Shown here piece by piece: positions 4,912 to 64,000 of a stretch of DNA of 64,000 bases (positions within the stretch are counted from its first letter, which is position 1; the number at the start of each line of letters is the position of its first letter). Under the pieces are notes generated by a model, which saw nothing but the letters and a program-made list of their open reading frames with translations, searched no databases and was not told where the DNA came from. Both the position numbers and the translations under genes were made by a program. The DNA comes from Octopus sinensis (lineage: Eukaryota): NCBI RefSeq assembly GCF_006345805.1, contig NC_043000.1, forward strand, positions 121,334,001 through 121,398,000. Direction: 5' to 3'.

Positions 4912-4984
4912 GTATGTATGTATGTATGTATGTATGTATATATGTATGTATGTGTGTATATATGTCGGTAGGTAGGTATGTTTC

Positions 4985-5361
4985 TTTTATTCTTTTACTT
5001 GTTTCAGTCAGTTTATTGTTGCCATGCTGGAGCACTGCTATGAAGGGGTTTTAGTTGAGCAAATCGTCATCAAGACTTATTTTTTAAGCCTAGAACCTAT
5101 GCTATAGCTCTGTTTTGCCGAACTGGTAAGCAAAAAGGACGTAAATACTCTAACACTAGTTGTCAAGCAGACACAAAACACACGTACGTAGACATATACG
5201 ACGGGCTTCTTTCAATTTCCGTCTACCAATTCTTCTCACAATGCTTTGATCAGCACAAAGCTCTACGAGAAGAATCTAGCTCAAGTTACCACACCGTGGG
5301 TTTGATCCCAGTACCATGTGGTTGGGAAGCAAGCTTCTTACCGCACAGCTACTCCTGCGCC
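4985..5361 (-). mobile_element. SINE family B copy
   Basis: Minus strand starts ggcgcaggagtagctgtgcggtaagaagcttgcttcccaaccacatgg; colinear with 44005-44401. Confidence 0.85.
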
Positions 5362-15400: not shown

Positions 15401-15419
15401 CACATACATTCGCCATGTT

Positions 15420-15605
15420 GGGCCACTGAACTCAACAACATTTTTCTCATTCTTCCTCTGTACATTTTCTCTTATTCCTTTCTGACGAAGACCGTAAGCT
15501 CGAAACGTAAATGTCTTTTCCATTTTTCCCGAGCGTCAAACTAATAAACCTGCTTCTTCTTCCTACATTTCTGATAGTCTTTGTTTCCCTATAAATTTGA
15601 CCAGC
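15420..15605 (+). mobile_element. Short (TA)n-embedded repeat with HHR motif at 15478-15513 (pLTR-like family E)
   Basis: CTTT-CTGACGA-A-GACC-gtaa-GCTC-GAAA-CG-TA-AATG. Homologous to 27640-27865. Confidence 0.6.
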
Positions 15606-16330
15606 ATGTATATATATATATGTAAAAGTGTGTGTGTATACATTTATAACTACATATGTAGTGTTATTGTGTAATAACATTTCAATTGAACGCACACCCG
15701 TATATGCAACTGTACATATTGTACCATGTTTGCATTCCTTAACACTGCCATGAGATTAATGCTACTGAATGTAACGTCGCGACGTAGACATAAATTCGCC
15801 ATGTTTTTACCGAACATTATCTGGCTTAAAACCTATGGGTTAGTATATTGTGTAGAATTAAAGAAACATGAAGCTAGTTTTGCAGCTGAAAGACACAAGC
15901 GTTATTTATAGAACATGATGTAATTACATCTTAGTGTTTGCATCTGCCATTCGTATATTGATCGAAATCGCCTTTTCTCAACAATATGACGTCAGCCGGA
16001 TGACATCTCAGCTAATTGTCTCTTTCTCATAAGAAAATTACACCTTGCTATAAAACAAGCACAAGCTACAAGATATGAGTATGTTTCTTGGTAGTCTGTT
16101 GAAAATTATTTCACATATAATTTTGTTATGTAAATATTGTGCATTTTGTGCTTATATTTCAAAACGTGTGTAGTATATAATATGATATATGACGCATGTA
16201 TGTGTGAATGTGTGTTTATATATCTGTTATGAGAGTGTACACTTGCATATCTAACGTAACTATTTGCATATATATTTCCACACAATTATATATGCTTACA
16301 TACTTACACATACGCACACACACACACACA

Positions 16331-22755: not shown

Positions 22756-22984
22756 GGAAATTGGCGGAATCATTTGCACGCTGAGCGAAATACTTAAACG
22801 TATTTCGTCTGCTGTTACGTTCTGAGTGCAAATTCCGCCGAGGTCGACTTTGCCTTTCATCCTTTCGGGGTCGATTAAATAAGTGCCAGTTACGCACTGG
22901 GGTCGATGTAATCGACTTAATTCCTTTGTCTGTCCTTGTTTGTGCCCTCTATGTTTAGCCTCTTGTGGACAATAAAGAAATAAA
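22756..22984 (+). mobile_element. SINE family A copy
   Basis: atttcgtctgctgttacgttctgagtgcaaattccgccgaggtcgactttgcctttcatcctttcggggtcg; near-identical to 57640. Confidence 0.9.
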
Positions 22985-23523
22985 TATTGCCCACCGTCGT
23001 TGTTTGTTTTTTAAAAAAAAACCAAGATATGAAGACACGGTATTATGCAAAGTATAAGTGACTCTGCGTCACAATATTGGTTGTTATGTGGAAAACTAAA
23101 ATTAAAAAAAATTCTCAAGTTTAAATTGGAAAATAGTTTGATAATATGACAGTTAAATGGTAAATCAAAGAGAGATTGGTTTTGCAAAAAACAAAACAAA
23201 AGAGAGAAAGAGAAATAACTATTAAGATAAATATTTAATAATAGTGTATAGCAGATATCCAAATAGACGAGTGGATCGGTGCGAAATATCAGCAGAAAAG
23301 AGATTAGAAGTCTACAGAGACTAAATATTCTCTATTAACTCCAAGAAATTGATTCGATACCAAACGAAATTACGAGTAGATAAAACTAGAAGCGAAATAT
23401 AGCAAAAGAAGCGATTAAGGTGGGGCAATTGTGAGAGGACTTACATTATATACGAATGCACGCGTGTGTGTGTCTCTGTGTTCGTGTTTATATAGAGAGT
23501 TACTTGTACGTGCATACACCCGC

Positions 23524-28266: not shown

Positions 28267-28612
28267 GTCGGAAAAAACAAAGTGACCCAAGAACCGAGAG
28301 TTTCGCGCATTAGCATTTATCAATCTCATTACAGGTCGAGAGGTCGTGACTTTATACACTGGGGAAAATATTATTTCCCTAGGTTCTTCTAGAACAAATT
28401 ATAAAAATAATTACGATGTCACGTGAATAATTCATATTTTTCAAAAGTTTGTTCAAAAGTTTGTTCACTACATGCAACAATAAATAAAGAAAATGGAGAA
28501 AATGTGTGTACTTATACACAAACAAATGCGAGCACTGATTGATTGAATACAATGTCTTTATACGCATACATATACACGTATACAAATGTGTAAGTATATA
28601 GTTATACATGTA

Positions 28613-28752: not shown

Positions 28753-29096
28753 TGTCGGAAAAAACAAAGTGACCCAAGAACCGAGAGTTTCGCGCATTAG
28801 CATTTATCAATCTCATTACAGGTCGAGAGGTCGTGACTTTATACACTGGGGAAAATATTATTTCCCTAGGTTCTTCTAGAACAAATTATAAAAATAATTA
28901 CGATGTCACGTGAATAATTCATATTTTTCAAAAGTTTGTTCAAAAGTTTGTTCACTACATGCAACAATAAATAAAGAAAATGGAGAAAATGTGTGTACTT
29001 ATACACAAACAAAAGCGAGCACTGATTGATTGAATACAATGTCTTTATACGCATACATATACACGTATACAAATGTGTAAGTATATAGTTATACAT

Positions 29097-29164
<68 letters not shown>

Positions 29165-29636: not shown

Positions 29637-30894
29637 CGAGGGGCGTTCAATAAGTAATTCCCCTGACCCACTTCCCATACCAGTAGAGCAACGGAACTTG
29701 ACACAGTTATTGGTCTTTTTCTACCATCGTTTGATCCAGCTCTGGAGACCGTTTTTGTAAAAGACCCCAGTTTGGTCCTCCATCCACGACGTGACTTTAG
29801 AAATCAAGGCTGCATCATCTGGGAAATGTTTTCCTTTCAAAAACAACTTCATGGCTGGATAGAGGTGAAAATCAGAGGGTGCAAGGTCAGGAGAGTAGGG
29901 GTGGGGGAGGAGTTCATAGCCGCACGCCTGTGCTTCTGATCTGGCGACACGCGAGTTGTGGACCGGAGCGTTGTCCTGCAGGAGAAGGATGCCTTCGCTG
30001 ACTTGCCCCGCCTCTTGATTTTGATAGCTTCTCTTAATTTCATCAAAAGTGAAGCATAACAGGCTTCTGTAATTGTGATACCTTTTGCCAGGAAATCTGT
30101 CATCACTACTCCGTCCTGGTCCCAGAAGACTGTGAGCATGACCTTGCCAGCAGAGGGCTGCACACTTGCCTTCTTTGGAGGAGGTGAGTCATGGTGCTTC
30201 CACTGCATTGACTGGGCTTTGGTCTCTGGATCATAGTGATGGACAAGATTTCATCCTGTGTAATCAGTCTTTAGAAAAATTTTGACTCATCTTCTTGGTA
30301 CGTCTCCAAATTCATCCTCGAGCACTCGACGCGTTCTTGCTTCTGGAAAGGTGTGAGCAACCTTGGAATCCATCTGGCAGACACCTTTTGCATATGCAAA
30401 TGGTCATGAATGATAGTTTCCCACTGACCCGGTACTGATCTTGACCTCATGGGCTATTTGGCGAATAGTTATGCGTCGATCTTCCAAAATGGCAGCCTCA
30501 ACTTGACAGACAGATGCCTCATCAATGGCAGAAGAGGGTCGACCAGATCTGGGAGCTGTTTCCACAGAGTTCCGACCATGTTTGAATTCACGATGCCAGC
30601 GTTTTACAAGGTCATATGATGGGGCATCATCACCATAAGTTACTTTCATTTCATCAAAAGTCTCCCGTGGTGTGCCTCCTTTTAAATACAAAAACCGGAT
30701 AACTGCTCGACACTCAACAGGCTCCATTTCACACTTGACTCAGTTCAAACACCTGTAAATCAGAAACCATAATGATGTCAGAGCTGTAATTTGCCACCTA
30801 ATCCATAGAGATATAAGCAATTGCACATGCAAAATTTCAACTAGATCAAACACCTGGAAGTGGGTCAGAGGGATTACGTATTGAACGTCCCTCG
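29637..30894 (-). mobile_element. Near-full-length mariner (DD34D-type) transposon, 1258 bp
   Basis: ~39-bp TIRs cgaggggcgttcaataagtaattcccctgacccacttcc and ggaagtgggtcagagggattacgtattgaacgtccctcg; TA target-site duplication at 29635-36 and 30895-96. Confidence 0.95.
29715..30727 (-). pseudogene. Mariner transposase pseudogene
   Basis: MEPVECRAVIRFLYLKG (HTH), PRSGRP, KVSARWIPRLL, ITQDE, GKVMLTVFWD, LLQDNAPVH, PYSPDLAPSDFHL. Frameshifts near 30420, 30245 and 30000, plus an in-frame TAA near 30272. Confidence 0.95.
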
Positions 30895-34796: not shown

Positions 34797-34992
34797 AAAA
34801 TGTGACCGTGTGTGTACCGTTGGCGATTTTTTTTCCTCTGTCTTCCCTTCTCTGGATCTTTCCTTCACCTATGTCTCCGACGAAGAGCTCCGCTCGAAAC
34901 GTTAAATCCACTTTCTTTCCTTCTTTCCTGAGCGTCCAATAATACTATATTTGTTCCAGGTCCTCTCGTTGTTGTGTTTTTTTGTGCTTTCT
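34797..34992 (+). mobile_element. Family F ~210-bp (TA)n-embedded repeat with HHR at 34873-34907
   Basis: CCGACGA(34877-83)-A-GAGC-tcc-GCTC-GAAA-CG-TT-AAA; near-identical to 41106-41318 and 63853-64000. Confidence 0.8.
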
Positions 34993-36126
34993 TATATATA
35001 TATATATACGTATATAAACCTACACAAATATATATATATTAAATTTGGGGAATATCATTATGGCAATAAGAAACGCATACACTGCCTGAATTATTCATTT
35101 TGTAAACCATTTAATCGATTCAGTAAGCGATTGCAAACGTAATCGTTCGTCACACACACAATTGGCTGGGATTGTCAGAATTCTTTCTTTACCATTCACG
35201 GCCTCATTATTGATACGGCCGCGAAACTCCAGGGCTATTTGTCTTTTAGTTTTAGGTTTTAATATTTATATTCACAATATGAATGAGAATGTGAGCCAGA
35301 AAGAAACAGACGTGGACGTGTGTTCACGTGCACGCACATATGCTTTCTCTCGTACATTTAAAGAATCACCAATCTGCACCCTGTGTGTGAACACTTGTGT
35401 GAAGCCTTGATCCTTTGAATGGTGCGAGTGGTTGAACGTTTTCGTTTTTCAGCGTTCGGTGTCTCTTTCTCTTCGAATAACCTTTTTGTAAGTAGGTGTT
35501 GGCTTCGGTGTGGCCTTGCGTGTATGGACACTGGAATCCAGTATTATTTTTTTTCACATTGTGAGATGGTGGAGATCATATTACAATTTTATCACTTCTC
35601 ATTATTCGTCCTGATATACGAGGAAGACATAGAATTTATTATAAGAGAATGCAGAATTTATCAACCAACGTGCTTATATTTCACACACGTAAATGCCAAA
35701 CAGAAAAAAAATAACACAGAAAATACAAACACACACACGTTGACACACACACACACACACACACACATGCACACAAATATCTACTTCAGATATGGCTGTG
35801 AACAGGCTATAATACACCTAGCCCAGATTTCTAGAAAAATATTACAAGACTTTAGTTTAATAACAATACATTGGTGTATATATGTGCATGTATGTATATG
35901 TGTGTATGTGTGAGTGTATGTATTGTATATACTTTTATCTGCATCGCGCATATGTTATTTCCACACTATCACATAACACTTAGTAACGAGAACATTGCCA
36001 ATGCAAAATTAAGACAACTTATTGTCCTGTAAAAACCGTAATATATATACTTCGTCGTATACAATGCTTGTAGCAGGAAATACTGTGACTTTGTCAGTAA
36101 TTAATATTAATGTATAATGTATAGAA

Positions 36127-36330
36127 GGCTGCGAGCAGGCAGAAGCATACGAACACCGAATGTAATGCTTAGCAGTATTTCGTCTGTCTTTATCCTCTGA
36201 GTTCAAACTCCGTCGAGATCGACTTTGCATTTCATCCTCTCGCGGTCGATGTGTACTGGGGTATATCTAATCGACTGGCACCCATCCCCCAAAATTTCGA
36301 GCCTTGTACCTAGAGTAGAGAAGAATATTA
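36127..36330 (+). mobile_element. SINE family A copy
   Basis: aatgcttagcagtatttcgtctgtctttatcctctgagttcaaactccgtcgag. Confidence 0.8.
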
Positions 36331-36937
36331 ATGTATCAGAGGCGGCAAGCTGGCAAAAACGTTAGCACGCCATGCGAACCACATAGCACCTTTGCAAATA
36401 CTATAAACACTACATTTAAAAGAGGTGTCTCAAAAATTCAATCACCACTACAAGTCAACTTCAGGACACTTGACCATTTAACATCCTACTACTATCATGA
36501 CACTCACGCATTCTTTTTCGTCTTCTCCACCTCCTCCACTTCCTTCTCCTCCTTATCCCCCTCCTTCTCCTTCTCATTCTTCTTCTTCTTCTTCTTCTTC
36601 TCTTCTTCTTCTTTTTCTTATTTTCTCCTTTTCTTCTTCTTCTTTCTCTACTTCCTCTTCTTCTTCTCTATCAAGAATTCCCAACGACCTCAACCCCACA
36701 AAATGTTGTTGATTCCTATCCTGGCTCAGAATTCTACAGAACATCTGTAGAGATCAAGTTAACGATTTATATTATATATTGTTTGAAATATTCTTACCAC
36801 GTTTTGTTTCATCATAGTTCAACATTTCAAACCTTCTTCCTAATTGCTAGGATGTGTCCTTAAAGATTCCTCACTTAATATTATTTATCCACTGAGAAAA
36901 AATTGCATACAAACACGTTATAATACTACGTTATTCA

Positions 36938-37074
36938 GGGTGCAGGCATAGCTGTGTAGTTACAAGCCCGATTTCCAACCACATGGTTAGCACATTGTGC
37001 AAGTGTCATCTACTATATAGATTGGGCCGACCAAAGCCTTGCAAGTTCATTTGGTAGACGGAAATTGAAAGAAC

Positions 37075-37151
<77 letters not shown>

Positions 37152-37330
37152 TGAGTTTGTCCCACTCCATCACTTGACAACCGATGTTGGTGTGTTTACG
37201 TACCCGTAACTTAGTGGTTCGGCAGAAGGGACCGATAGAATAAGTACTAAGCTAACAAAAAGTCCTGGCGTCGATTTCTTTGACTAAAGCTGGTGCTCCA
37301 GTATGGTCGCAGATATATGACTGAAATACA
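36938..37330 (+). mobile_element. SINE family B copy with internal (TA)n(TG)n
   Basis: gggccgaccaaagccttg...ttggtagacggaaa...cttgacaaccgatgttggtgtgtttacg...ccgatagaataagtact. Confidence 0.85.
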
Positions 37331-37836
37331 TTTAAAAAATGAACTTGTTCTCCTGACAAATCAACAAGGACACAAAACTCCTGTTGGCTAAAGCACACGT
37401 AGCTCAATTTGATATGGTCTGATACGGCTCTTATTAATTGGAATAACACCTCTCGCTGACTGGTTGGTCGCTGCATAGTTTTAAAAGTTCGCTTTCCCTC
37501 CAAACTGTTCTTATATAAGAAGATGCTCGGCTCAGGAACTAAACGTAACGTCTAGAGAAGATGAGATTTAATGACCTATGATCAGATACACCAATGCATT
37601 GTATTATCAGATCGGTCTTCTTCCTTAAGTATAGCATTAAACTACTTGTTATAAAATATGTGTGAATAATATTGGGTGTCTTTCCATTATACTCTTCTGT
37701 TAACCAATACCTTTTGTGTAGAGTTTGGTAGACAGAAACACTCTTTCTTTCTCCCGTCTTTCTCTGTCTATCTAACTATACATCTATCTATTTTATATAC
37801 ATATATATATCTACATACACATACACATGTGTGTGC

Positions 37837-37873
<37 letters not shown>

Positions 37874-37889
37874 CATATATGTGTGTGTG

Positions 37890-37923
<34 letters not shown>

Positions 37924-38196
37924 GGTATATATTGACAGCTTCTTACCTAATATATATTTATATACATGTAAATATATATATATGTGTGTGTGTATTTATA
38001 TGTATACATACATGTATACATATATGTGTGTGTGTGTGTGTATATATATAACATGTATACATACATATATATATATGTATATATACATGTATATATATAT
38101 GCATATATATGTATGCTTGCATGTATGTGTATATAATTATATATATACATATGCATATAAAATTTCTTACATGGTTCACGCATACTCTCACACACA

Positions 38197-38278
<82 letters not shown>

Positions 38279-38325
38279 TAGATATAGATTTATATACATA
38301 TATAAGCGTGCATCATATATATATT

Positions 38326-38362
<37 letters not shown>

Positions 38363-40419
38363 GTGGTTGTGTGTATGTGTGTGTGTTTGTGTTGGATTTG
38401 TGTGTGTATGTGAGGTTTTTTCGAGCTGCTGAGTAGTTTATCTGAGAGTATACGTACGTGTTGGTGCGTAGACGTCACTGTTTCTATATGTCTTCTAAAA
38501 TCACTGTTCTTTTTGCTGCACCTCTTTATGACCGGTAACAAGCAGCTCGACGAATAAAGAACGGTAAAATATGGAGTAGCCGAATATAATTGCTGGATTC
38601 CTAAGATCAATATGATCGACCAAAGCAATGCTGTAGCATGGCCACTGTCTTATAGCTAACCATTAAAAGAATGTATTCGTCTGCCGACATAAATATGTTT
38701 TATGCAATAGCATTCGTTCAATAATGATTTATTGTATTCGCCATCTATAGTATAAACAATACAATATAAGAAAACTTCTAAATTGAAATTGCAGCATCAC
38801 AGCAATAATCTACATTCTGTCAAAGATCGAATCGAAAGTTTCATTGTTTTAAAAAAGCTATTGTTTGAGTAGAGAAAAAAAAATCTATTAAAACAAAATG
38901 TCTAACTGAAAAGTTACATGGAATTGATTAGTTCATACAAGGCTGGAACATGTCAGAAACAAGCCATCTTCACTCCTCAGGCTCTCACTCACTTTCCCTT
39001 TCATTCTTTTCCCATACTGCTGTCTCCGTCACACACACAGACACACATACGCTCATTGCTTATCTATATCATAACCGTATCTCTGCAGTTTCTTCTTAAT
39101 ATCAATTCTTCAATAAATACCATTCCACGTTCTCATTCTTCGCATCAGCCTTCTCCTAATTTTCCAATCTAACTTTCTCCGTTATATCACTCTATTTCTC
39201 GTTTATCTCTGTTACATTTGCTCTTTTTCCATTTCTTTTACAACACTTTTTTCTAATAAATCTTCATCCACTGAGGTCTACTTTCACTCAATTCCGTTAT
39301 TCGACTGCTGCGTCATATTATGACCTTTCTTATCTATCCTCACGCTACTTCTCTAAATGTCTTACCACATTTTCGCGACGGCTCTTTCTCCAACACTCCT
39401 TCATTTAATCTTTTACTAATTCTTAAGCTGCTTTTCTTTTCCTCGGGTTTTTATTTGCTACTTAGTCACATTTTTATTTTTCACTTTCACTTTCAATATT
39501 GAACGGTTCTTTTCTCCTTCTTCTCTTTATCTGTCTAACCCTTGTATCTAACTATTCTTTTCACTTCTTTCCAATTGTTCTTTCTCGCTCATACATCCAC
39601 TCCCTCCCCCTCATTCTTACCATCTTAATTCAACTCATATACATCCATTTTCTCCAATATTTGCTGACGTTATGCAACCTTTAGTTATTTTCAACTTCGA
39701 TTTGCACAAGACGATAACATGACGGTGTCAAATGCCTGTATCGACGAATGTAAATGCCATTGCGAAGAATCCATTTATGGACCAAATATATTGATCCTTA
39801 CTATTAAATTCGATTTTTGTTTTGCTGAAAGCCCACCGGAATGAACAAATGGAACGTTATAAAATGAAACAACTTATATTGATAACGTATAAACAAACAA
39901 GGTATTTCTGCTGGTGTTAATGTCAGCAAGTAGGTCTACCTACATAATGGTTTATCTCTAGTAGCTATCGTTAGAGAAGAATACAATTATTCACTCTTGT
40001 AGGAACATATGTAAATACCCAGGCGCACAAAAGCAGTGATGTATAGTTTATATGCTAGATAAATATGTATGTATGTATGTATGTATGTATGTGCATATGC
40101 CATTATTCAGTTTTATTTCAAGATTTCTTACCAATAAAGAACCGGTTTCTAATGCAGATCCAAGGCTACTTCATTGAAATTTCAGGGTAGTTTTGTTTGT
40201 ATGTATGTACATAGGTATAGGTGCAGATTTATACGTTTAGCTTTAAGTATTATCATGTATATAGTTGCATATCTAGACATGCTCATATATATTTAAATAA
40301 CTTTGTTGAATGTTTTACAGATTTTTACAGTTCCAGTGATGGGTTGTATCTGTTGTCTTCAAATTCGATTTTTCCTTTCTGGTTTTGAGAAATCTAATTT
40401 CTGTTATTGACTAACCAGG

Positions 40420-40960
40420 TCCCACGAAGCTATAGTGTATGACACCTGCGCTGGATCACCAAACAGGCACCTTTAGCTTTCTTTAGTGAATGTTCTTTTT
40501 TGGATTGTATTTTCATCACACGTAACGATACAAAAATGTCTCGCTTTTATGCCTTGACCACAAACTACAGCAAGTTTCAAGACGGCGTTTCATTTGCTAC
40601 TCGTTCACTTCGTGTGGTATCCATTGTCTTGCTTCTTTGCCTTGCCGATTTGTTTCAGGTAGTCCAATACAGTTGGAATCGAAACATCAAAACTTACTGC
40701 TAACTCACGCGTAGTTTGAGATGTATCCACTTCAACTAGTTTCCAACTCCTCACTATCCACCTCGGTCTCAAGTCTACGAGGGGACTAATATTCAAGAGT
40801 AAAACACAACACAGGAACTACTGAAACCATCAACGTACAGTACACTCATTCACCACATCTACATCAAACACCCCATCGCTGCTTCGAGCTGAGATACATT
40901 GGTTCCACGACGGAAGTCATATTCATGAATAAAAACTCACAATATAATCAGACAACAAGA
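40420..40960 (-). pseudogene. Degenerate mariner transposase N-terminal remnant
   Basis: VEVDTSQTTRELAVSFDVSIPTVLDYLKQIGKAKK matches the mariner second HTH. Confidence 0.75.
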
Positions 40961-41105
40961 ATTCATTTCGAAAAGTGATGATGTAACTCTTCAATATTGT
41001 ATAACAACGAATTGTCAGGATAAAACATTAGTTAACGAGTGTCAAATTTAGTGTATAAGAAAATTGGACATTTCATTCTTAATAACCTGATATATATATA
41101 TATTC

Positions 41106-41317
41106 AAAATGTGACCGTGTGTGTACCGTTGGCGATTTTTTTTCCTCTGTCTTCCCTTCTCTGGATCTTTCCTTCTCCTATGTTTCCGACGAAGAGCTCC
41201 GCTGGAAACGTTAAACCCTCATTATTTCCTTCTTTCCTGAGCGTCCAATAATACTATATTTGTTCCACCTCCTCGCGTTGTTGTATTTCTTTGTGCTTTC
41301 TTGTTTGGATTAACTAA

Positions 41318-41318
<1 letters not shown>
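41106..41318 (+). mobile_element. Family F repeat with HHR at 41182-41216
   Basis: GTTT-CCGACGA-A-GAGC-tcc-GCTG-GAAA-CG-TT-AAAC; perfect stem I, C11.1 changed to G. (TA)n on both sides. Confidence 0.8.
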
Positions 41319-41379
<61 letters not shown>

Positions 41380-44004: not shown

Positions 44005-44401
44005 TACTCTTTTACTCTTTTACTGTTTTACTTGTTTCAGTCATTTGACTGCGGCCATGCTGGAGCACCGCCTTTAGTCGAGCAAATCGACCCCGGGACT
44101 TATTCTTTGTAAGCCCAGTACTTATTCTATCGGTCTCTTTTGCCGAACCGCTAAGTGACGGGGACGTAAACACACCTGCATCGGTTGTCAAGCAATGCTA
44201 GGGGGACAAACACAGAAACACACACACATACACATTTATATATATACGACAGACTTTCAGTTTCCGTCTACCAAATCCACTCACAAGGCATTCGTCGGCC
44301 CGGGGCTATAGCAGAAGACACTTGCCCAAGATGCCACGCAGTGGGACTGAACCCGGAACCAAGTGGCTGGTTAGCAAGCTACTTACCACACAGCCACTCC
44401 T
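44005..44401 (-). mobile_element. SINE family B, well-preserved copy
   Basis: Minus strand ggagtggctgtgtggtaagtagcttgctaaccagccacttggttccgggttcagtccc (A and B boxes) through to a gtaaaagag tail. Confidence 0.9.
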
Positions 44402-45276
44402 GTATACATATACCTATTCACATGTTAACCTTGTAACTTTTCACAGTGGAAACATAAATAGAGGGTTAATAGTTTTGATAAGAAATAGAGCTGCTTCAAT
44501 TTTGGAATGAAATCAGTACCGTATTACTTGAGACGGTACTGGATCGTCTTTAATGCATTCATGGTTCGTATTGACATCTACGCATTCTTTAATATTTGTA
44601 TTCTGTTAAAGTAACTCATATCGAAATATATACAGAAATATCCACTAGATTAAATGATGTAAACGTAAAACACATTCCAACAGTAAAAGCAAATATTATG
44701 TTCAGATATAAAGCAATCATTGATGTTTTTTACCCAAATAAGTTCATATAAAATTACCCAAATGTGACCTGTGTTTACATCTTTTAAGCACCCAAACCCA
44801 CAAATATAATCACCAAACATGCAATCACGCACACATATGTACGTACACATCCCAGCACTTACATATATCGGGAGAGCATTAGTGGGGGAGAAAGAAAGGG
44901 TTAGACGAAAGGAGCTGTCGGTAAATAATAAATAGATCCATAGATATTATTCATGTACGGCCATTAATGCGTTTGTATTTATGCATGTCTGTATTAAATA
45001 AAACGCTAAGTTCTATATTGAAATAAGCGAAAACTTGCATTGATGTTCAGTTTGCTGAAAAGACCTATAAAAGTCATGTTAGCACTAAATGGTTAATTTT
45101 CCTTGAAAGTCGTTTAAAGAATGTATATATCAATCATTAGGTATGCAGTTATCGATTTTCGTTATCTACACATTAAGTATGTATTAGTCAAGAGAAAGAG
45201 ATAAACAAAGCAAAAACAAAAAAAGTAAATGAAGCCACTAATAATAATAACGATGATGACGACGATGAAGATAATA

Positions 45277-49029: not shown

Positions 49030-49387
49030 TCTCGTTTAGGCACAAAACTGAAATTTTTGAGCAGCGGGGCCAGTCAATTAAATCGACCCCAGTACCAACT
49101 GGTACTTAATTTATCGACACCGAAAGGGTGAAAGGCAAATTTGACCTCGGCAGAACTTGAACTCAGAACATAAACAATGGGGCTAAACACAGAGGGGACA
49201 AACAAGGACAGACAAATGGATTAAGTCGATTATATCGACGCCAGTGCGTAACTGGTACTTATTTAATCGACCCCGAAAGGGTGAAAGGCAAAGTCGACCT
49301 TGGCGGAATTTTAACTCAGAACGTAAACACAGACGAAATACCGCTAAGCATTTCTCCCGGCGTGCTAACATTTCTGCTAGCTCGCCC
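49030..49387 (-). mobile_element. Two nested or tandem SINE family A copies
   Basis: actggtactt.atttaatcgac..cgaaagggtgaaaggcaaa occurs twice (near 49100 and 49250). Confidence 0.85.
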
Positions 49388-52003: not shown

Positions 52004-53939
52004 ATTAAGAAAATGCCTATCAGTCATGTTATAGGTAATACAAACGTGCACAAATCTATGTATAAATATATGCCTATGTATGTAAATTCAAACAGTGAAA
52101 ATCAAAGTATTTATTAAAAATAAGATCTACAAAATTCTTCACTCCATGATACACGTTCCGATATTCGAACGAATATTTAATAAAACAAACGGAAATCGTT
52201 AATATGAATATTCAAATATTGATAATAAAAATAAATAATTTATCTGAATTTAAGAGAAGAATTTATTTTCAACGCTTGAAACAATATATGATTGGTTGCA
52301 TGTGCAAAGATAAAATATACTTGCCATAAAATGAAAAATAAAGCTTAACAATAAAATTGTATGAGAAGCCTTTTAGCAAAACACGTTTACGCTAAAAAAA
52401 AAAAAAAAGTGCTGAATAATAAAATTGTAAATAACTCTAAATAACGAGTCTATAGTGTTGCTGCGTATATATGTAGCCATCATAACATATACCATCCGCT
52501 GAAAGTATAAATTTATATAGTACCTAATGTTTACTAAATTGCTCGAGTAATCAACTAACTGACCTCTTAATTGACTTTCTCATGTCAAAGATAAGAGCAA
52601 GATTATGTATAATAAAAATGTGTGCATTTCCATGTATATATATATATGTATATGTACATGATTGTATGCAAACATACACACACACACACACATATATATA
52701 TATACATATATGTGTGAGTATGTGTGTGTTTATTTATGTTTGTATATGTGTGTGTGCGTTTACAAACATCTATGCTTAGTACAAATGCATGTTTGTGCAC
52801 CCATTAATGCAAATTGTCATACTGTATATCTCTGTGAGCGAGTGTGTGTGCTACTTGTTTAAATATTTATTAATTTTTCTATATATGCTATTTTCCTCTA
52901 GGGAATCTACTATATGGAATCGGGTATGTAAATACCCGAAATAAATAAATTACATCATGCTATTGACATATGCAAGTCTTTTGTGGACTTCTTTATTGAA
53001 TTTAAGACCATTGTTTAATTTGTAACTTGGCTTGAAAAAAAAAAACTCCTATTAAGCACCTCCCAAATTATTCCCTTATATCTTAATCAAAAGCTATATG
53101 AACGACAATATCGTCCTTGATTCATTATGTCTCGGAAAATCGGGATCCTTTATACCGAGGAAACCTTTCTTTGTTCATATATCTACAAAATTTGATATTC
53201 ATAGGAGCGTACATATGAACACCCAGAGTCGGATGATTTGCGATATTTTTCTGGATCTGATTTCAAGTCCTGCTATGGCCAACATGCTTGGATATCCAAT
53301 AAAAATATCGTAAACTACATGGTGATCTTCATATGTCACCCCTCGTAAAACATCCACATCACACTTTGTGTATCGTCAGCGTACGCAGCCTTGTAGCACA
53401 AATTCGGTCCAGCTCTTCCGTTTGACATTCTATTCTTCCCTCCCACCAATCTCGGGGTCCCTATAAACATCCTTAAAAGCTTTTTTAATCGCCTGGCTAA
53501 AAGCTAAACGAAATAAGACCCACTACAAACTATATGCAAGCTCTGTAATAAAGATTGTTGTTTAATTGGTAAAACTACAACGTTTAGCATTCTTAAACCA
53601 TTTCATGTTCATTTCTCTCCCTTAGCTCTATTGCTTCATCGGGGGAGTTTTTATTTAATCTAAACTTTGATGTATATAAATTCCACATCCATTAGTTTTT
53701 AGCCAATGTTTCTTCTTCAGTGCAGTTTAATGGACGGACTCAGTTGTAGTTTCAGAGGCCAGAGCGTGATATCATACTTGTAATATTTCGTTCGTGGTCT
53801 CTGATTACCTGCAAATTGAAAATACACAGGGATGCAAGATGTAAAGAAATTTAATGTATCTTTATTGTACTTGACAGAGTAAGGAAAATCATTTTAACGT
53901 GATAAGATTACTCGTTTCAAGTTCATTATCGAAATCTCT

Positions 53940-54600
53940 GGCGGATTCCTCCTTTTCGACTCCGGCCCAGTGCATCCATACTGCCAACAAAGCACGCGGA
54001 GTTCTGTTCTTGATTCGACGGTCATTCGGAATGCTCACAGCAGCCATACTCCTACCGCTCTATGTCACGCTGGTGAGACCCGTATTAGAGTACGGGATTC
54101 AAGCCTCTTCTCCTTATCTCCTCAAAGACATACATCATCTCGAAAGAGTCCAGAGGCTGGCTACCCGCATGGTTCTTGGTCTCAAGAATTTGTTTTATGA
54201 AGGCTGAGGACGCTCGACCTTTATTCTCTAGAAAAACGACGACGCCGTGGTGATCTCATTCTTGCTCACAACATTATAAGTGGAAAGTGTAACCTCTCGA
54301 AAGAGCTGTTCTTCACTCCTGCTCCAGAGCGTCGGCTACGGGGTCATTCCGAAAAGCTCTATCTGCGACGATTTCATCTCAATCGAAGGAGAGGGGCTTT
54401 CTCCGCCCGGGTTGCGGATCCGAGGAATAAGCTGCCGGACGAGATGGTGAAGATGCCGACGACCGCTCGGTTCAAAGTCTCTCTTGACCAGAAATAGCCT
54501 GAACTCTTTGCATGAACCCCCTACCTGTACATAATTCCATGTCCCCCTACATGGCCTTGATTTTTGCTTTTGGAGCCAAACAATTAACTAACTAACTAAC
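53940..54600 (+). mobile_element. 5'-truncated CR1-group LINE 3' end
   Basis: LYVTLVRPVLEYG...LERVQRLATRMV, frameshift, then LYSLEKRRRRGDLI...RGHSEKL...FSARV..NKLP; short 3' UTR and (CTAA)n tail. Confidence 0.9.
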
Positions 54601-57639: not shown

Positions 57640-58024
57640 GGCGGTGTGTTGGCAGAAACGTTAGCACGCCGGTCGAAATGCTTAGCGGTATTTCGTCTGC
57701 CGCTACGTTCTGAGTTCAAATTCCGCCGAGGTAGGCTTTGCCTTTCATCCTTTGGCGGTCGATTAAATAAGTACCAGTTACGCACTGGGGCCGATATAAT
57801 CGACTTAATCCGTTTTTCTGTCCTTGTTTGTCCTCTCTATGTTTAGCACCTTGTGGGTAGTAAAGCAATAGGTATTTCATCTGTCTTTACGTTCAGAGTT
57901 CAAATTCCGTCGATGTCGACTTTGCCTTTCATCGTTTCGTGGTCGATAAATCAAATTTAATCCCTTTGTCTGTCCTTGTTTGTCCCCTTTAAGTCTAGCC
58001 CCTTGTGTGCAATAAAGAAATAAG
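57640..58024 (+). mobile_element. SINE family A, full copy plus duplicated 3' part
   Basis: ggcggtgtgttggcagaaacgttagcacgccggtcgaaatgcttagcgg...gagttcaaattcc; body repeats again from 57872. Confidence 0.9.
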
Positions 58025-60192: not shown

Positions 60193-60288
60193 CATACTAC
60201 TTCATAACAATTGCAGTGTGGAAGATGTTTGTAAGCCATTTAAGAAACACACAAAAGCCGTTCGACTCACTTCAACATTTAAGTTTAA

Positions 60289-60338
60289 TTTGTCAAAATA
60301 TTTTCGTCGCTAAAATCCGCGACCTGTTCACTGACAAA
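60289..60338 (-). ncRNA. Type I hammerhead ribozyme, G3:C8 variant (left-arm copy)
   Basis: Exact reverse complement of 60360-60409. Confidence 0.7.
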
Positions 60339-60359
60339 AATCCGTGCTGCATCTGGATT

Positions 60360-60409
60360 TTTGTCAGTGAACAGGTCGCGGATTTTAGCGACGAAAATAT
60401 TTTGACAAA
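60360..60409 (+). ncRNA. Type I hammerhead ribozyme, G3:C8 variant (right-arm copy)
   Basis: TTTGTCA-GTGAACA(60367-73)-G-GTCGC-ggatttta-GCGAC-GAAA-ATAT-TT-TGACAAA. 7-bp stem I, 5-bp stem II, palindromic stem III, UUU triplet. Confidence 0.72.
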
Positions 60410-61719
60410 TTAAACTTAAACGTTGAAGTGAATCGAACGGCTTTTGTGTGTTTCTTAAATGGCTTACAAACACCTTCCACGCTGCAATTGTTTTCGTTCC
60501 AGCACACGATCTCAGATCAAATCACTTGCTATGCGAGTACATCTCCGTACTTCATAATAATTCGAACTTTATTATATAACTACACAAGATACTACTTTCA
60601 CAAAGACAACGTGCTAGTATGTTTTAAAATATTAATAGGTTATTGAGTTAAGAGAAAGAATATGAACAACGATGCGCCGAGGCCTTATTAATTTCCTTAT
60701 GTATTATATATGTCCGTCGTTACCTGATTTATTTGCTTGAAAACCAATCCAGTGGGCACTATCTGATAAGGGCCTTATGCTGGATGGGAGCGCGAACGAA
60801 TACATGGATAATAAGTAATAACACAAAATCCTTCTTCATTAAAATATTCTGTTTATGCTGTCAAAACGATGATGGAGTGTTTGTTAGTTGCTATTCTTCG
60901 ACAAGACACGCTGTGATACGAATAACATGCGTACCACTAAAGTAAATGATCCCAGCAAATTTCATAAGAATTCAAGATCTAATCAACATCGTTCCTCATG
61001 AATTGCAGTCAGACTGGATATTGTTCAAGACAATGAGCCTATTCAGAGAGACAAACTTTTAAGCCATATTACTCTTCAAGGCATTTCGGTAAACAATTCT
61101 CGAGGTATCGGCAAATATGGAATCATTTCAATATATTTCAGTTGTGAGCAAACAACAGTTTCGTATTCACGTTTCTTTACTGCAAATAGACTATAATTAA
61201 ATCTGTTTGACAGACCCTTTGCATGGCACACACACGCAAAACGCATGCGCAGACGCATTCTACACATATGATCGCATAGAGAAATTGGAAAACCTAATTA
61301 TTTTAAACATTAATTTCGTTGTTTCTGTTTTTTACTTGTTATGTTGCTTGTCATAATATTATTTCCTTTTATTTTGTTCTATATTAAATTCCTCCTTTTC
61401 ATGTCATCTCTAATCGAATTTCCCAATTGCAAAGTCTTTGTCTCTGAAGAATGAAGAAAATGGGAAAGAATTTAGTAAATACAAGAATAAATACAAAATC
61501 TTAGATGACAGTAAAATACAGAACACTGAAGGTGAAAAAAAAAAAAAAGAAATGGAGAGGAAAAATGAAAGACAGGAGAATAAGAAAGAAAAAAATTACT
61601 AATGATAAAAGGTAGAAAAAGTAAATGAAAGCATATGAATGGCGAAAGAAGTAGGAAATTATTGTTGAAAGTAGAATGAAGATTGAAGTAGAATATGACG
61701 TTAATGAAGAAGAACATAC

Positions 61720-62741: not shown

Positions 62742-63090
62742 TCTTTACTCTTTTACTTGGTTTAGTCATTTGACTGCGGCCATGCTGGATCACCTCCTTT
62801 AGTCGAGCAAATCGACACCAGGACTTTTTTGCCGATTCTCTAAGTTACGGGGACGTAAACATAACAGCATCGGTTGTCAAGCGATGTTGGGGTGGGGACA
62901 AACACAGGGAAACAAAAAAAAATACATATATACATATACATATATACGACGGGCTTCTTTCAGTTTCCATCTACCAAATCCACTCACAAGGCTTTGGTCG
63001 ACCCGAGGCTATAATGGAAGACACTTGCCCAAGATGCCACGCTGTGCGACTAAACCCGAAACCCTGTGGTTGGTAAGCCACTCCTGCGCC
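62742..63090 (-). mobile_element. SINE family B copy
   Basis: Colinear with 44005-44401; ends ccactcctgcgcc. Confidence 0.9.

Positions 63091-63749: not shown

Positions 63750-64000
<251 letters not shown>

What the first reader, a model, noticed from the sequence alone, without database searches (positions are those of the whole stretch)
34797..41318. Young ~210-bp family F with a 35-nt U4C hammerhead, three copies in 64 kb
Seen: near-identical copies at 34797-34992(+), 41106-41318(+) and 63853-64000(-), each ending in (TA)n. The two complete copies start at the same aaatgtgaccgtgtgtgtacc point. There is no tRNA head and no TIR. Consensus: GTTT-CCGACGA-A-GAGC-TCC-GCTC-GAAA-CG-TT-AAAC; stem III (ACGU) can only form in a dimer. 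Inference: a high-copy SINE-like element made from a solo pLTR, possibly mobilised by a Penelope RT/endonuclease that targets TA repeats.
Basis: partly seen in the sequence, partly recalled or inferred. Interest (0 to 1): 0.7.

Follow-up and report, generated by a model that had tools for sequence, protein, structure and literature searches.

The report
Solo Penelope ends carrying variant hammerhead
A dispersed 210-base repeat with a minimal hammerhead-ribozyme motif sits in TA microsatellites of this animal genome; it is likely the detached end (pseudo-LTR) of a Penelope-like retrotransposon, a known kind of element, and its altered ribozyme core also marks a subfamily of coral-type Penelope elements, which suggests these elements can spread with a likely weakened ribozyme.

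Summary
The three copies are real (93-95% alike, all beside TA tracts). A fourth, diverged sister copy at 15407-15607 has the canonical U4 core. The motif fits the published minimal hammerhead of Penelope-like elements (PLEs) in everything but U4C. No window copy carries it intact, and it varies as much as its flanks (4/36 versus 10/97 columns). Contigs of public runs show a very abundant family with a defined 5' end and two 3' ends 14 nt apart, both running into (TA)n. About a quarter of the depth keeps U4, and no tandem or circular junction was seen. The same core variant marks 46 of 90 copies of a coral-type family; 6 of the 13 distinct copies that follow an RT/GIY-YIG ORF end carry it, so U4C is not unique. 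Best reading: solo pseudo-LTRs of a Neptune-like PLE, likely copied from the transcription start to an internal priming site and inserted at TA tracts. The parent element was not found, and cleavage is untested. New member of a known kind; not a tRNA SINE, MITE or tandem retrozyme.

The parts
34797..34993 (+). Copy F1 of family F, short (tail-less) form, inside a TA tract
34873..34907 (+). Minimal type I hammerhead motif of F1: C4 core, two changes in stem I
41102..41314 (+). Copy F2, full length, from ATTC to TTAAC, TA on both sides
41182..41216 (+). Hammerhead motif of F2: C4 at 41187 (T in 23-30% of family depth); private C-to-G change at 41204 breaks the first pair of stem II
41231..41255 (+). 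Box downstream of the hammerhead (around GAGCGTC) shared with the sister family; role unknown, possibly part of a protein-binding hairpin (inference)
   Evidence: (loose ends at 41220)
41301..41314 (+). Optional 14-nt 3' tail: present in F2 and F3, absent in F1 and apparently in about 23% of family depth
63852..64000 (-). Copy F3, 5' part cut off by the window end, with tail, running into a long TA tract; extra A in GAAA
15407..15607 (+). Sister-family copy F4: same length and layout, begins ATTC, canonical CTGACGA core at 15482, TA tracts on both sides
   Evidence: (global score 62 vs shuffled -25.7 +/- 11.8, max 34 of 200)

Best explanation
Family F is a dispersed 200-213-bp repeat with a minimal hammerhead motif and two alternative 3' ends abutting (TA)n, and it is likely the solo pseudo-LTR of a Penelope-like retrotransposon (probably Neptune-type), likely copied by that element's reverse transcriptase and GIY-YIG endonuclease into TA tracts. 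Inferred steps: an RNA starts at the ATTC at the 5' end; the PLE protein nicks TA-rich DNA; it primes reverse transcription at one of two internal sites about 112 or 126 nt past the hammerhead core; it copies back to the RNA's 5' end. This gives a fixed-length insert with an optional tail. The hammerhead is predicted to be weak or inactive (no stem III as a monomer, U4C in most copies) and is probably not needed for the copying. Whether the source RNAs come from autonomous elements or from solo copies is open (about even).
For: Motif: it has the extra base between 9 and 10.1, G10.1-C11.1, the CG palindrome and a 4-bp stem I of the published PLE minimal hammerhead (PMC4209133). The only part of F that matches 120 metagenome loci is this motif. 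Those loci match the published Acropora Neptune motif; in 16 of 120 (13 distinct) the end of an RT/GIY-YIG ORF lies upstream on the same strand. Ends: 98-99% of family depth goes into TA after the tail, and 23% shows the shorter end. Two priming sites and an optional tail are PLE hallmarks (PMC11167929; PMC8557442). Depth in the first full 5' bin (1.96 million) matches the 3' bins (1.78-1.82 million), and 42 contigs leave the element at 41102 with mixed flanks. The sister copy starts at the same ATTC. In the coral-type family 30 of 89 copies end 10-12 nt upstream of the motif, at an ATTC about 31 nt after a TATA-like box. Hammerhead mutants do not block insertion in vitro.
Against: No PLE ORF is linked to F: none in the window, no read-through protein, and no match to the published octopus Naiad. 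Neither complete copy shows the inverted or partial-tandem arrangement typical of PLEs. No target-site duplication can be read in the TA tracts. The coral-type family does not share the TA preference (3 of 104). The two raw-read runs gave only 2 and 26 reads of 12.9 million each, far too few for a high-copy family; this is unexplained (silent filtering or a different organism). The start-site reading rests on motifs only, with no 5'-end RNA data. Rfam does not recognise the motif.
Confidence: 0.75

Rival explanations
1. Ordinary 5'-truncated PLE insertions: the shared start is a preferred truncation point (end of the ORF, or microhomology with TA), not a transcription start.
For: Most PLE copies are 5'-truncated single motifs (PMC4209133; PMC8969392). 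In coral-type loci the ORF ends about 90-107 nt before the motif and also contains CATTC there, close to F's 86-nt distance. F1 and F2 starts differ by a few bases.
Against: 5' depth equals 3' depth, and no dominant upstream continuation is listed (330 loose-end rows were hidden). The sister family begins at the same ATTC. Coral-type 5' ends do not pile up at the ORF end.
Confidence: 0.12
2. Monomers shed by a non-LTR retrozyme: tandem arrays elsewhere are transcribed, self-cleave as dimers, circularise and are reinserted.
For: Retrozymes derive from pLTRs and often occur as monomers (bioRxiv 10.64898/2026.07.22.740005). The unit size is in range (PMC7229834).
Against: None of 14 listed joints links the 3' end to the 5' start. 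The hammerhead lies mid-element and the ends are fixed, where circle-derived copies should be permuted or begin at the cleavage site. Retrozymes described have canonical hammerheads. The dimer fold scores -5.7 kcal/mol against -13 for two inactive hairpins (rough). Limit: short contigs cannot see arrays separated by long TA tracts.
Confidence: 0.07
3. A SINE or MITE unrelated to PLEs, in which the hammerhead is a captured or chance motif.
For: Fixed length, high abundance, no ORF; the motif is no more conserved than its flanks among three copies.
Against: No tRNA head, A/B box or TIR. Flanks share nothing beyond simple repeats. A 27-31-nt motif is shared with ORF-linked PLE ends, and the optional tail is PLE-like.
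Confidence: 0.06

Closest known systems
Minimal type I hammerheads in PLE pseudo-LTRs (Cervera and de la Pena 2014, PMC4209133), in particular the Acropora digitifera Neptune motif
   Same: Core with C7 and an extra A before stem II, 4-bp stem II, GAAA, CG palindrome in place of stem III, short stem I; mostly single dispersed motifs.
   Different: C at position 4 in most copies (all 56 published representatives have U4); no ORF linked here; no cephalopod in that set.
Solo pLTRs and non-autonomous PLEs (Adineta vaga Pen3, PMC3846280; MRC1 of Chlamydomonas, PMC8557442)
   Same: Non-coding pLTR-sized unit (218 bp in Pen2a), optional tail, Inr-like motif; pLTR cis-sequences suffice for mobilisation in trans.
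   Different: Very high abundance, fixed 5' end, strict TA context; no inverted or head-to-tail partner in the two complete copies.
Poseidon element of Anolis (PAc; Frangieh et al. 2024, PMC11167929)
   Same: Two 3' ends roughly 110-130 nt past the hammerhead; AT-rich targets; a ribozyme that is not needed for insertion.
   Different: PAc's ORF starts inside the hammerhead, while all three frames of F close within the element. PAc is autonomous and tandem.
Non-LTR retrozymes of animals (PMC7229834; bioRxiv 10.64898/2026.07.22.740005)
   Same: Short, non-coding, type I hammerhead, pLTR origin, presumed PLE mobilisation.
   Different: No tandem arrangement or circle junction seen; minimal, core-variant hammerhead.
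Naiad_Ovul / Naiad_Obim (Craig et al. 2021, PMC8557442 supplement)
   Same: Octopus PLEs with (TA)n insertion preference.
   Different: Their 3' ends show no likeness to F on reading, four F motifs have 0 hits in that file, and Naiads lack canonical hammerheads.

Membership tests
PLE minimal hammerhead | Core CUGANGA ... GAAA | tested here: not met
   3 of 3 F copies have C4. Met by the sister copy F4 and by 23-30% of family depth. All other core bases match in the majority.
PLE minimal hammerhead | Extra base between 9 and 10.1, G10.1-C11.1, palindromic 15.2-16.2, short stem I, no stem III | tested here: met
   F2's break at 11.1 is private (95% C).
PLE minimal hammerhead | Self-cleavage as a dimer or with protein help | not testable with these tools
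   Needs an assay. The computed dimer fold is far from the minimum-energy fold.
EN+ Penelope-like element (pLTR) | Sequence lies at the end of an RT + GIY-YIG ORF in some copies | tested here: inconclusive
   Not found for F; no genome was held. Shown for the look-alike motif family in 16 of 120 loci.
EN+ Penelope-like element (pLTR) | Optional 3' tail (two ends) | tested here: met
   F1 vs F2/F3; 23% A at 41301 and 98-99% TA after 41314. The tail is 14 nt, shorter than the 30-40 nt reported.
EN+ Penelope-like element (pLTR) | Insertion into AT-rich or (TA)n targets | tested here: met
   4 of 4 copies (F1-F4) at TA tracts, against 8.4% of window positions near one; TA added during insertion is not excluded.
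EN+ Penelope-like element (pLTR) | Partial-tandem or inverted arrangement | tested here: not met
   Absent at F1 and F2. It is a feature of full insertions, not required of solo pLTRs.
Non-LTR retrozyme | Head-to-tail tandem units, each with a hammerhead | tested here: not met
   Dispersed monomers in the window; none of 14 joints is a 3'-to-5' junction. Arrays elsewhere in the genome are not excluded.
Non-LTR retrozyme | Circular RNA | not testable with these tools
   Only contigs of a guessed RNA run were laid (X5); no junction seen.
tRNA-derived SINE | tRNA head with A and B boxes | tested here: not met
DNA transposon / MITE | Terminal inverted repeats, or flanks shared with a longer element | tested here: not met
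Naiad | 3' end shared with a described octopus Naiad; no canonical hammerhead | tested here: not met
   (string search and reading, not an alignment).

The most novel reading that the evidence does not exclude
Family F is a self-propagating, SINE-like class of Penelope 'strong-stop' copies at about 10^5 per genome. Each runs from the pLTR start site to the internal priming site and has lost its upstream TATA box. It regains one by landing in (TA)n, so the target site serves as the promoter. U4C subfamilies have spread independently in a cephalopod-type and a coral-type genome because disabling cleavage keeps the template whole.
Probability: 0.2. Interest if true: 0.65.

Novelty: new member of a known kind. 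Interest (0 to 1): 0.36.

Why it matters
What the hammerhead does for endonuclease-bearing PLEs is open (PMC8557442), and in one in vitro system it is dispensable for insertion (PMC11167929). Here two unrelated hosts each hold U4 and C4 subfamilies of otherwise similar elements. That gives natural pairs for a cleavage assay and for comparing age and copy number. If the fixed ends are start site to priming site, these copies map both sites in vivo and explain how PLEs can spawn SINE-like families without a tRNA promoter. The element itself is an ordinary kind of repeat, and for annotation it belongs with PLEs, not with unclassified SINEs.

Tried and rejected
No host genome was held, so copies could not be counted or their ends mapped directly. 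Rfam: 0 hits at gathering thresholds; 3 chance hits at E 1.2-7. The repeat finder was swamped by microsatellites. Raw-read runs X21 and X22 gave 2 and 26 reads and cannot be used for copy number. CpG decay as the cause of T at 41187 is judged unlikely: the mirror G-to-A change at 41188 is not among the 40 rows shown (57 hidden), and in the coral-type family C4 travels with a linked downstream variant in 40 of 46 copies against 0 of 44 U4 copies. An intron ending at stem I, as in D. virilis, was considered because F3 has AG there; it was dropped because F1, F2 and F4 lack it. Lunse et al. 2017 on PLE hammerhead variants is not held and may already report U4C. The ESM Atlas look-up gave no useful taxon. 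Earlier scan findings: none by sequence or place.
Full report
Observation. Each differs from the three-copy majority at 3-6 of 133 columns. At the rate used for octopus in PMC13282606 (0.0036 per million years; parts 1-2 of 3 read) that would be roughly 6-12 million years, and above that paper's 2% limit for 'recently active'. That the host is an octopus is my recall of its other short repeats and was not tested. The same search found a fourth, diverged copy, F4, at 15407-15607. It aligns with F2 end to end (score 62 against -25.7 +/- 11.8, maximum 34, in 200 shuffles), begins with the same ATTC, and has the canonical CTGACGA core. All four copies lie at TA tracts, while 8.4% of window positions are within 5 nt of a (TA)4 tract. 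Their flanks share nothing beyond simple repeats. There is no tRNA, no A/B box and no terminal inverted repeat.

The motif. A strict hammerhead pattern matches 3 places against a mean of 0.005 in 200 shuffles. The majority form has a 4-bp stem I, a CCGACGA core, an extra A, a 4-bp stem II opened by G-C, GAAA, the palindrome ACGU and U17. This is the minimal type I hammerhead of Penelope-like elements (PMC4209133, main text parts 1-2 and supplement parts 1-2 read) in all but position 4. All 56 published representatives have U4. Rfam does not detect it. No window copy is intact, and variation inside the motif equals that outside (4 of 36 vs 10 of 97 columns, p = 1.0). The monomer's best fold pairs GACG with CGUU, an inactive hairpin (-6.5 kcal/mol, not unusual against shuffles at -4.9 +/- 2.3). 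The dimeric active fold scores -5.7 against -13 for two such hairpins (no tertiary terms). PMC3088659 (passages) states that a viroid U4C variant considerably lowers activity in vitro but still allows infectivity. I predict weak or no cleavage; this is untested.

The family beyond the window. No genome was held. Of 24 listed public runs, 21 hold the stretch or part of it, 16 with half the words or more, under four organism labels. I laid 4 runs on 40900-41332. DNA-type run X1 gave 16,851 contigs, with summed depth 1.7-4.5 million over the element against 31-62 for single listed contigs. The tool warns this is no copy number, and overlapping short contigs inflate it; I take it only as 'thousands or more'. 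Window density (3 in 64 kb, 95% interval 0.6-8.8) would give 27,000-380,000 copies in 2.8 Gb. Against this, raw-read runs X21 and X22 gave only 2 and 26 reads of 12.9 million each, which I cannot explain beyond silent filtering or a different organism under that label. In X1, position 41187 (position 4) is T in 23% of depth, and 30% in X5. Six other variants sit at 23-30%, which suggests a U4 subfamily; they cannot be phased. After 41314, 98-99% of depth reads TA, and 23% reads A at 41301, the shorter end seen in F1. Depth in the first full 5' bin (1.96 million) equals that of the 3' bins (1.78-1.82 million), and 42 contigs leave the element at 41102 with mixed flanks (agreement 0.47). None of the 14 listed joints joins the 3' end to the 5' start. 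The tool hid 57 variant rows and 330 loose-end rows. X5 is only guessed to be RNA, so expression is not shown.

Relatives with context. They match F only in the motif. After removing duplicates 102 remain, 90 of them in one family that matches the Acropora digitifera Neptune motif printed in PMC4209133's supplement. An ORF piece in L006 has homologues with RT and GIY-YIG domains, two of them named from corals. With one of these (P0038), 17 of 120 loci give a hit: 16 on the same strand upstream (13 distinct), 14 of them ending 90-107 nt before the motif. Forty of the 120 loci hold only short flanks. Position 4 is C in 46 of 90 copies. C4 is linked to a downstream variant in 40 of 46, against 0 of 44 U4 copies, and 6 of the 13 ORF-linked copies have C4. 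So U4C marks a PLE subfamily that amplified in a second host. In this family 3' ends fall in two groups (37 of 75 at +80 to +109, 24 of 75 at +140 to +159; BLAST ends); F's are at +112 and +126. Its 5' ends peak sharply: 30 of 89 end 10-12 nt before the motif, at an ATTC lying about 31 nt after a loosely defined TATA-like box in 6 of 7 long copies. The scan required the motif, which favours ends close to it, but not a spike of 18 at one position beside 1 at the neighbouring one. Only 3 of 104 of these loci have (TA)4 downstream, so the TA preference is not shared.

Mechanism. Shown: fixed-length dispersed copies, two 3' ends, TA context, and the motif's identity with ORF-linked PLE ends. From the literature: PLE transcripts start inside the pLTR from an internal promoter (PMC2377424, passages; PMC3846280, passages, which also reports solo pLTRs and mobilisation in trans). 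The Anolis Poseidon protein cuts AT-rich DNA, primes at two internal sites that give the optional tail, and inserts equally well with a dead hammerhead (PMC11167929, parts 1-2 read). Inferred: F copies are the stretch from the start site to a priming site, inserted by a PLE protein. Neptune is the likeliest clade, because the look-alike motif is Neptune's and Neptune's linker is proposed to give microsatellite bias (PMC8557442, passages). The published octopus Naiad targets (TA)n, but its 3' end is unlike F; it could still act in trans. Whether solo copies are themselves the templates is open. The partner was not found.

Comparison and novelty. It works like a PLE pseudo-LTR mobilised alone. 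Membership is likely but not proven, since the ORF link is missing for F itself and the core test fails at U4 in most copies. It fails the tests for tRNA SINE and MITE and, on present data, for tandem retrozyme (PMC7229834, passages; bioRxiv 10.64898/2026.07.22.740005, parts 1-3 of 5; its supplements were not opened). Searches for 'hammerhead' + 'Penelope', 'hammerhead' + 'U4C' (one paper) and 'hammerhead ribozyme' + 'octopus' showed no description of this family or of U4C in PLEs. Lunse et al. 2017 could not be read, and the octopus repeat library of PMC13282606 is deposited elsewhere and was not seen; either may hold it. Verdict: a real repeat, a new member of a known kind, interest 0.36. 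Its value lies in the natural U4/C4 pairs and in the possible start-site-to-priming-site anatomy.

Noticed in passing
window 15407-15607 (+): Sister family of F with a canonical U4 core; contig loose ends at 41220 point to further sister families that share the hammerhead and the downstream GAGCGTC box.
   Followed up: partly
L001-L120 (for example L006, L007, L029, L079, L117-L119): A coral-type Neptune PLE family splits about evenly into U4 and C4 subfamilies; its 5' ends peak at an ATTC about 31 nt after a TATA-like box, and 24 of the 65 shortest copies have an inverted copy just upstream.
   Followed up: partly
window 41118 and the matching base of F1: F1 and F2 both have T where 94% of X1 depth has C: parallel CpG decay, a local subfamily, a different species, or filter bias.
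   Followed up: no
window about 40420-41090 (-): Decayed transposase-like remnant directly upstream of F2; its translation resembles mariner motifs as I recall them, it is repetitive, and it was not hit by the window's other mariner ORFs.
   Followed up: partly
window 29721-30739 (-): Frameshifted mariner transposase; Mos1-type HTH domain by Pfam.
   Followed up: partly
window 60206-60492: Near-perfect palindrome, 138-nt arms at 97% with an 11-nt spacer, inserted inside a short-repeat copy; MITE-like or a foldback.
   Followed up: no
window 28267-28611 and 28754-29098: 345-bp duplication at 99.7% with a period of 487; a recent tandem duplication or an assembly artefact.
   Followed up: no
window 53875-54497 (+): Two ORF pieces that read like the 3' end of a LINE reverse transcriptase (recalled likeness; no Pfam hit).
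   Followed up: no
window 22761-22988, 49072-49377, 57649-58023, 4983-5357, 44016-44402, 62744-63078: Several other abundant short-repeat families at 70-88% identity; recalled as octopus SINEs, not tested.
   Followed up: no
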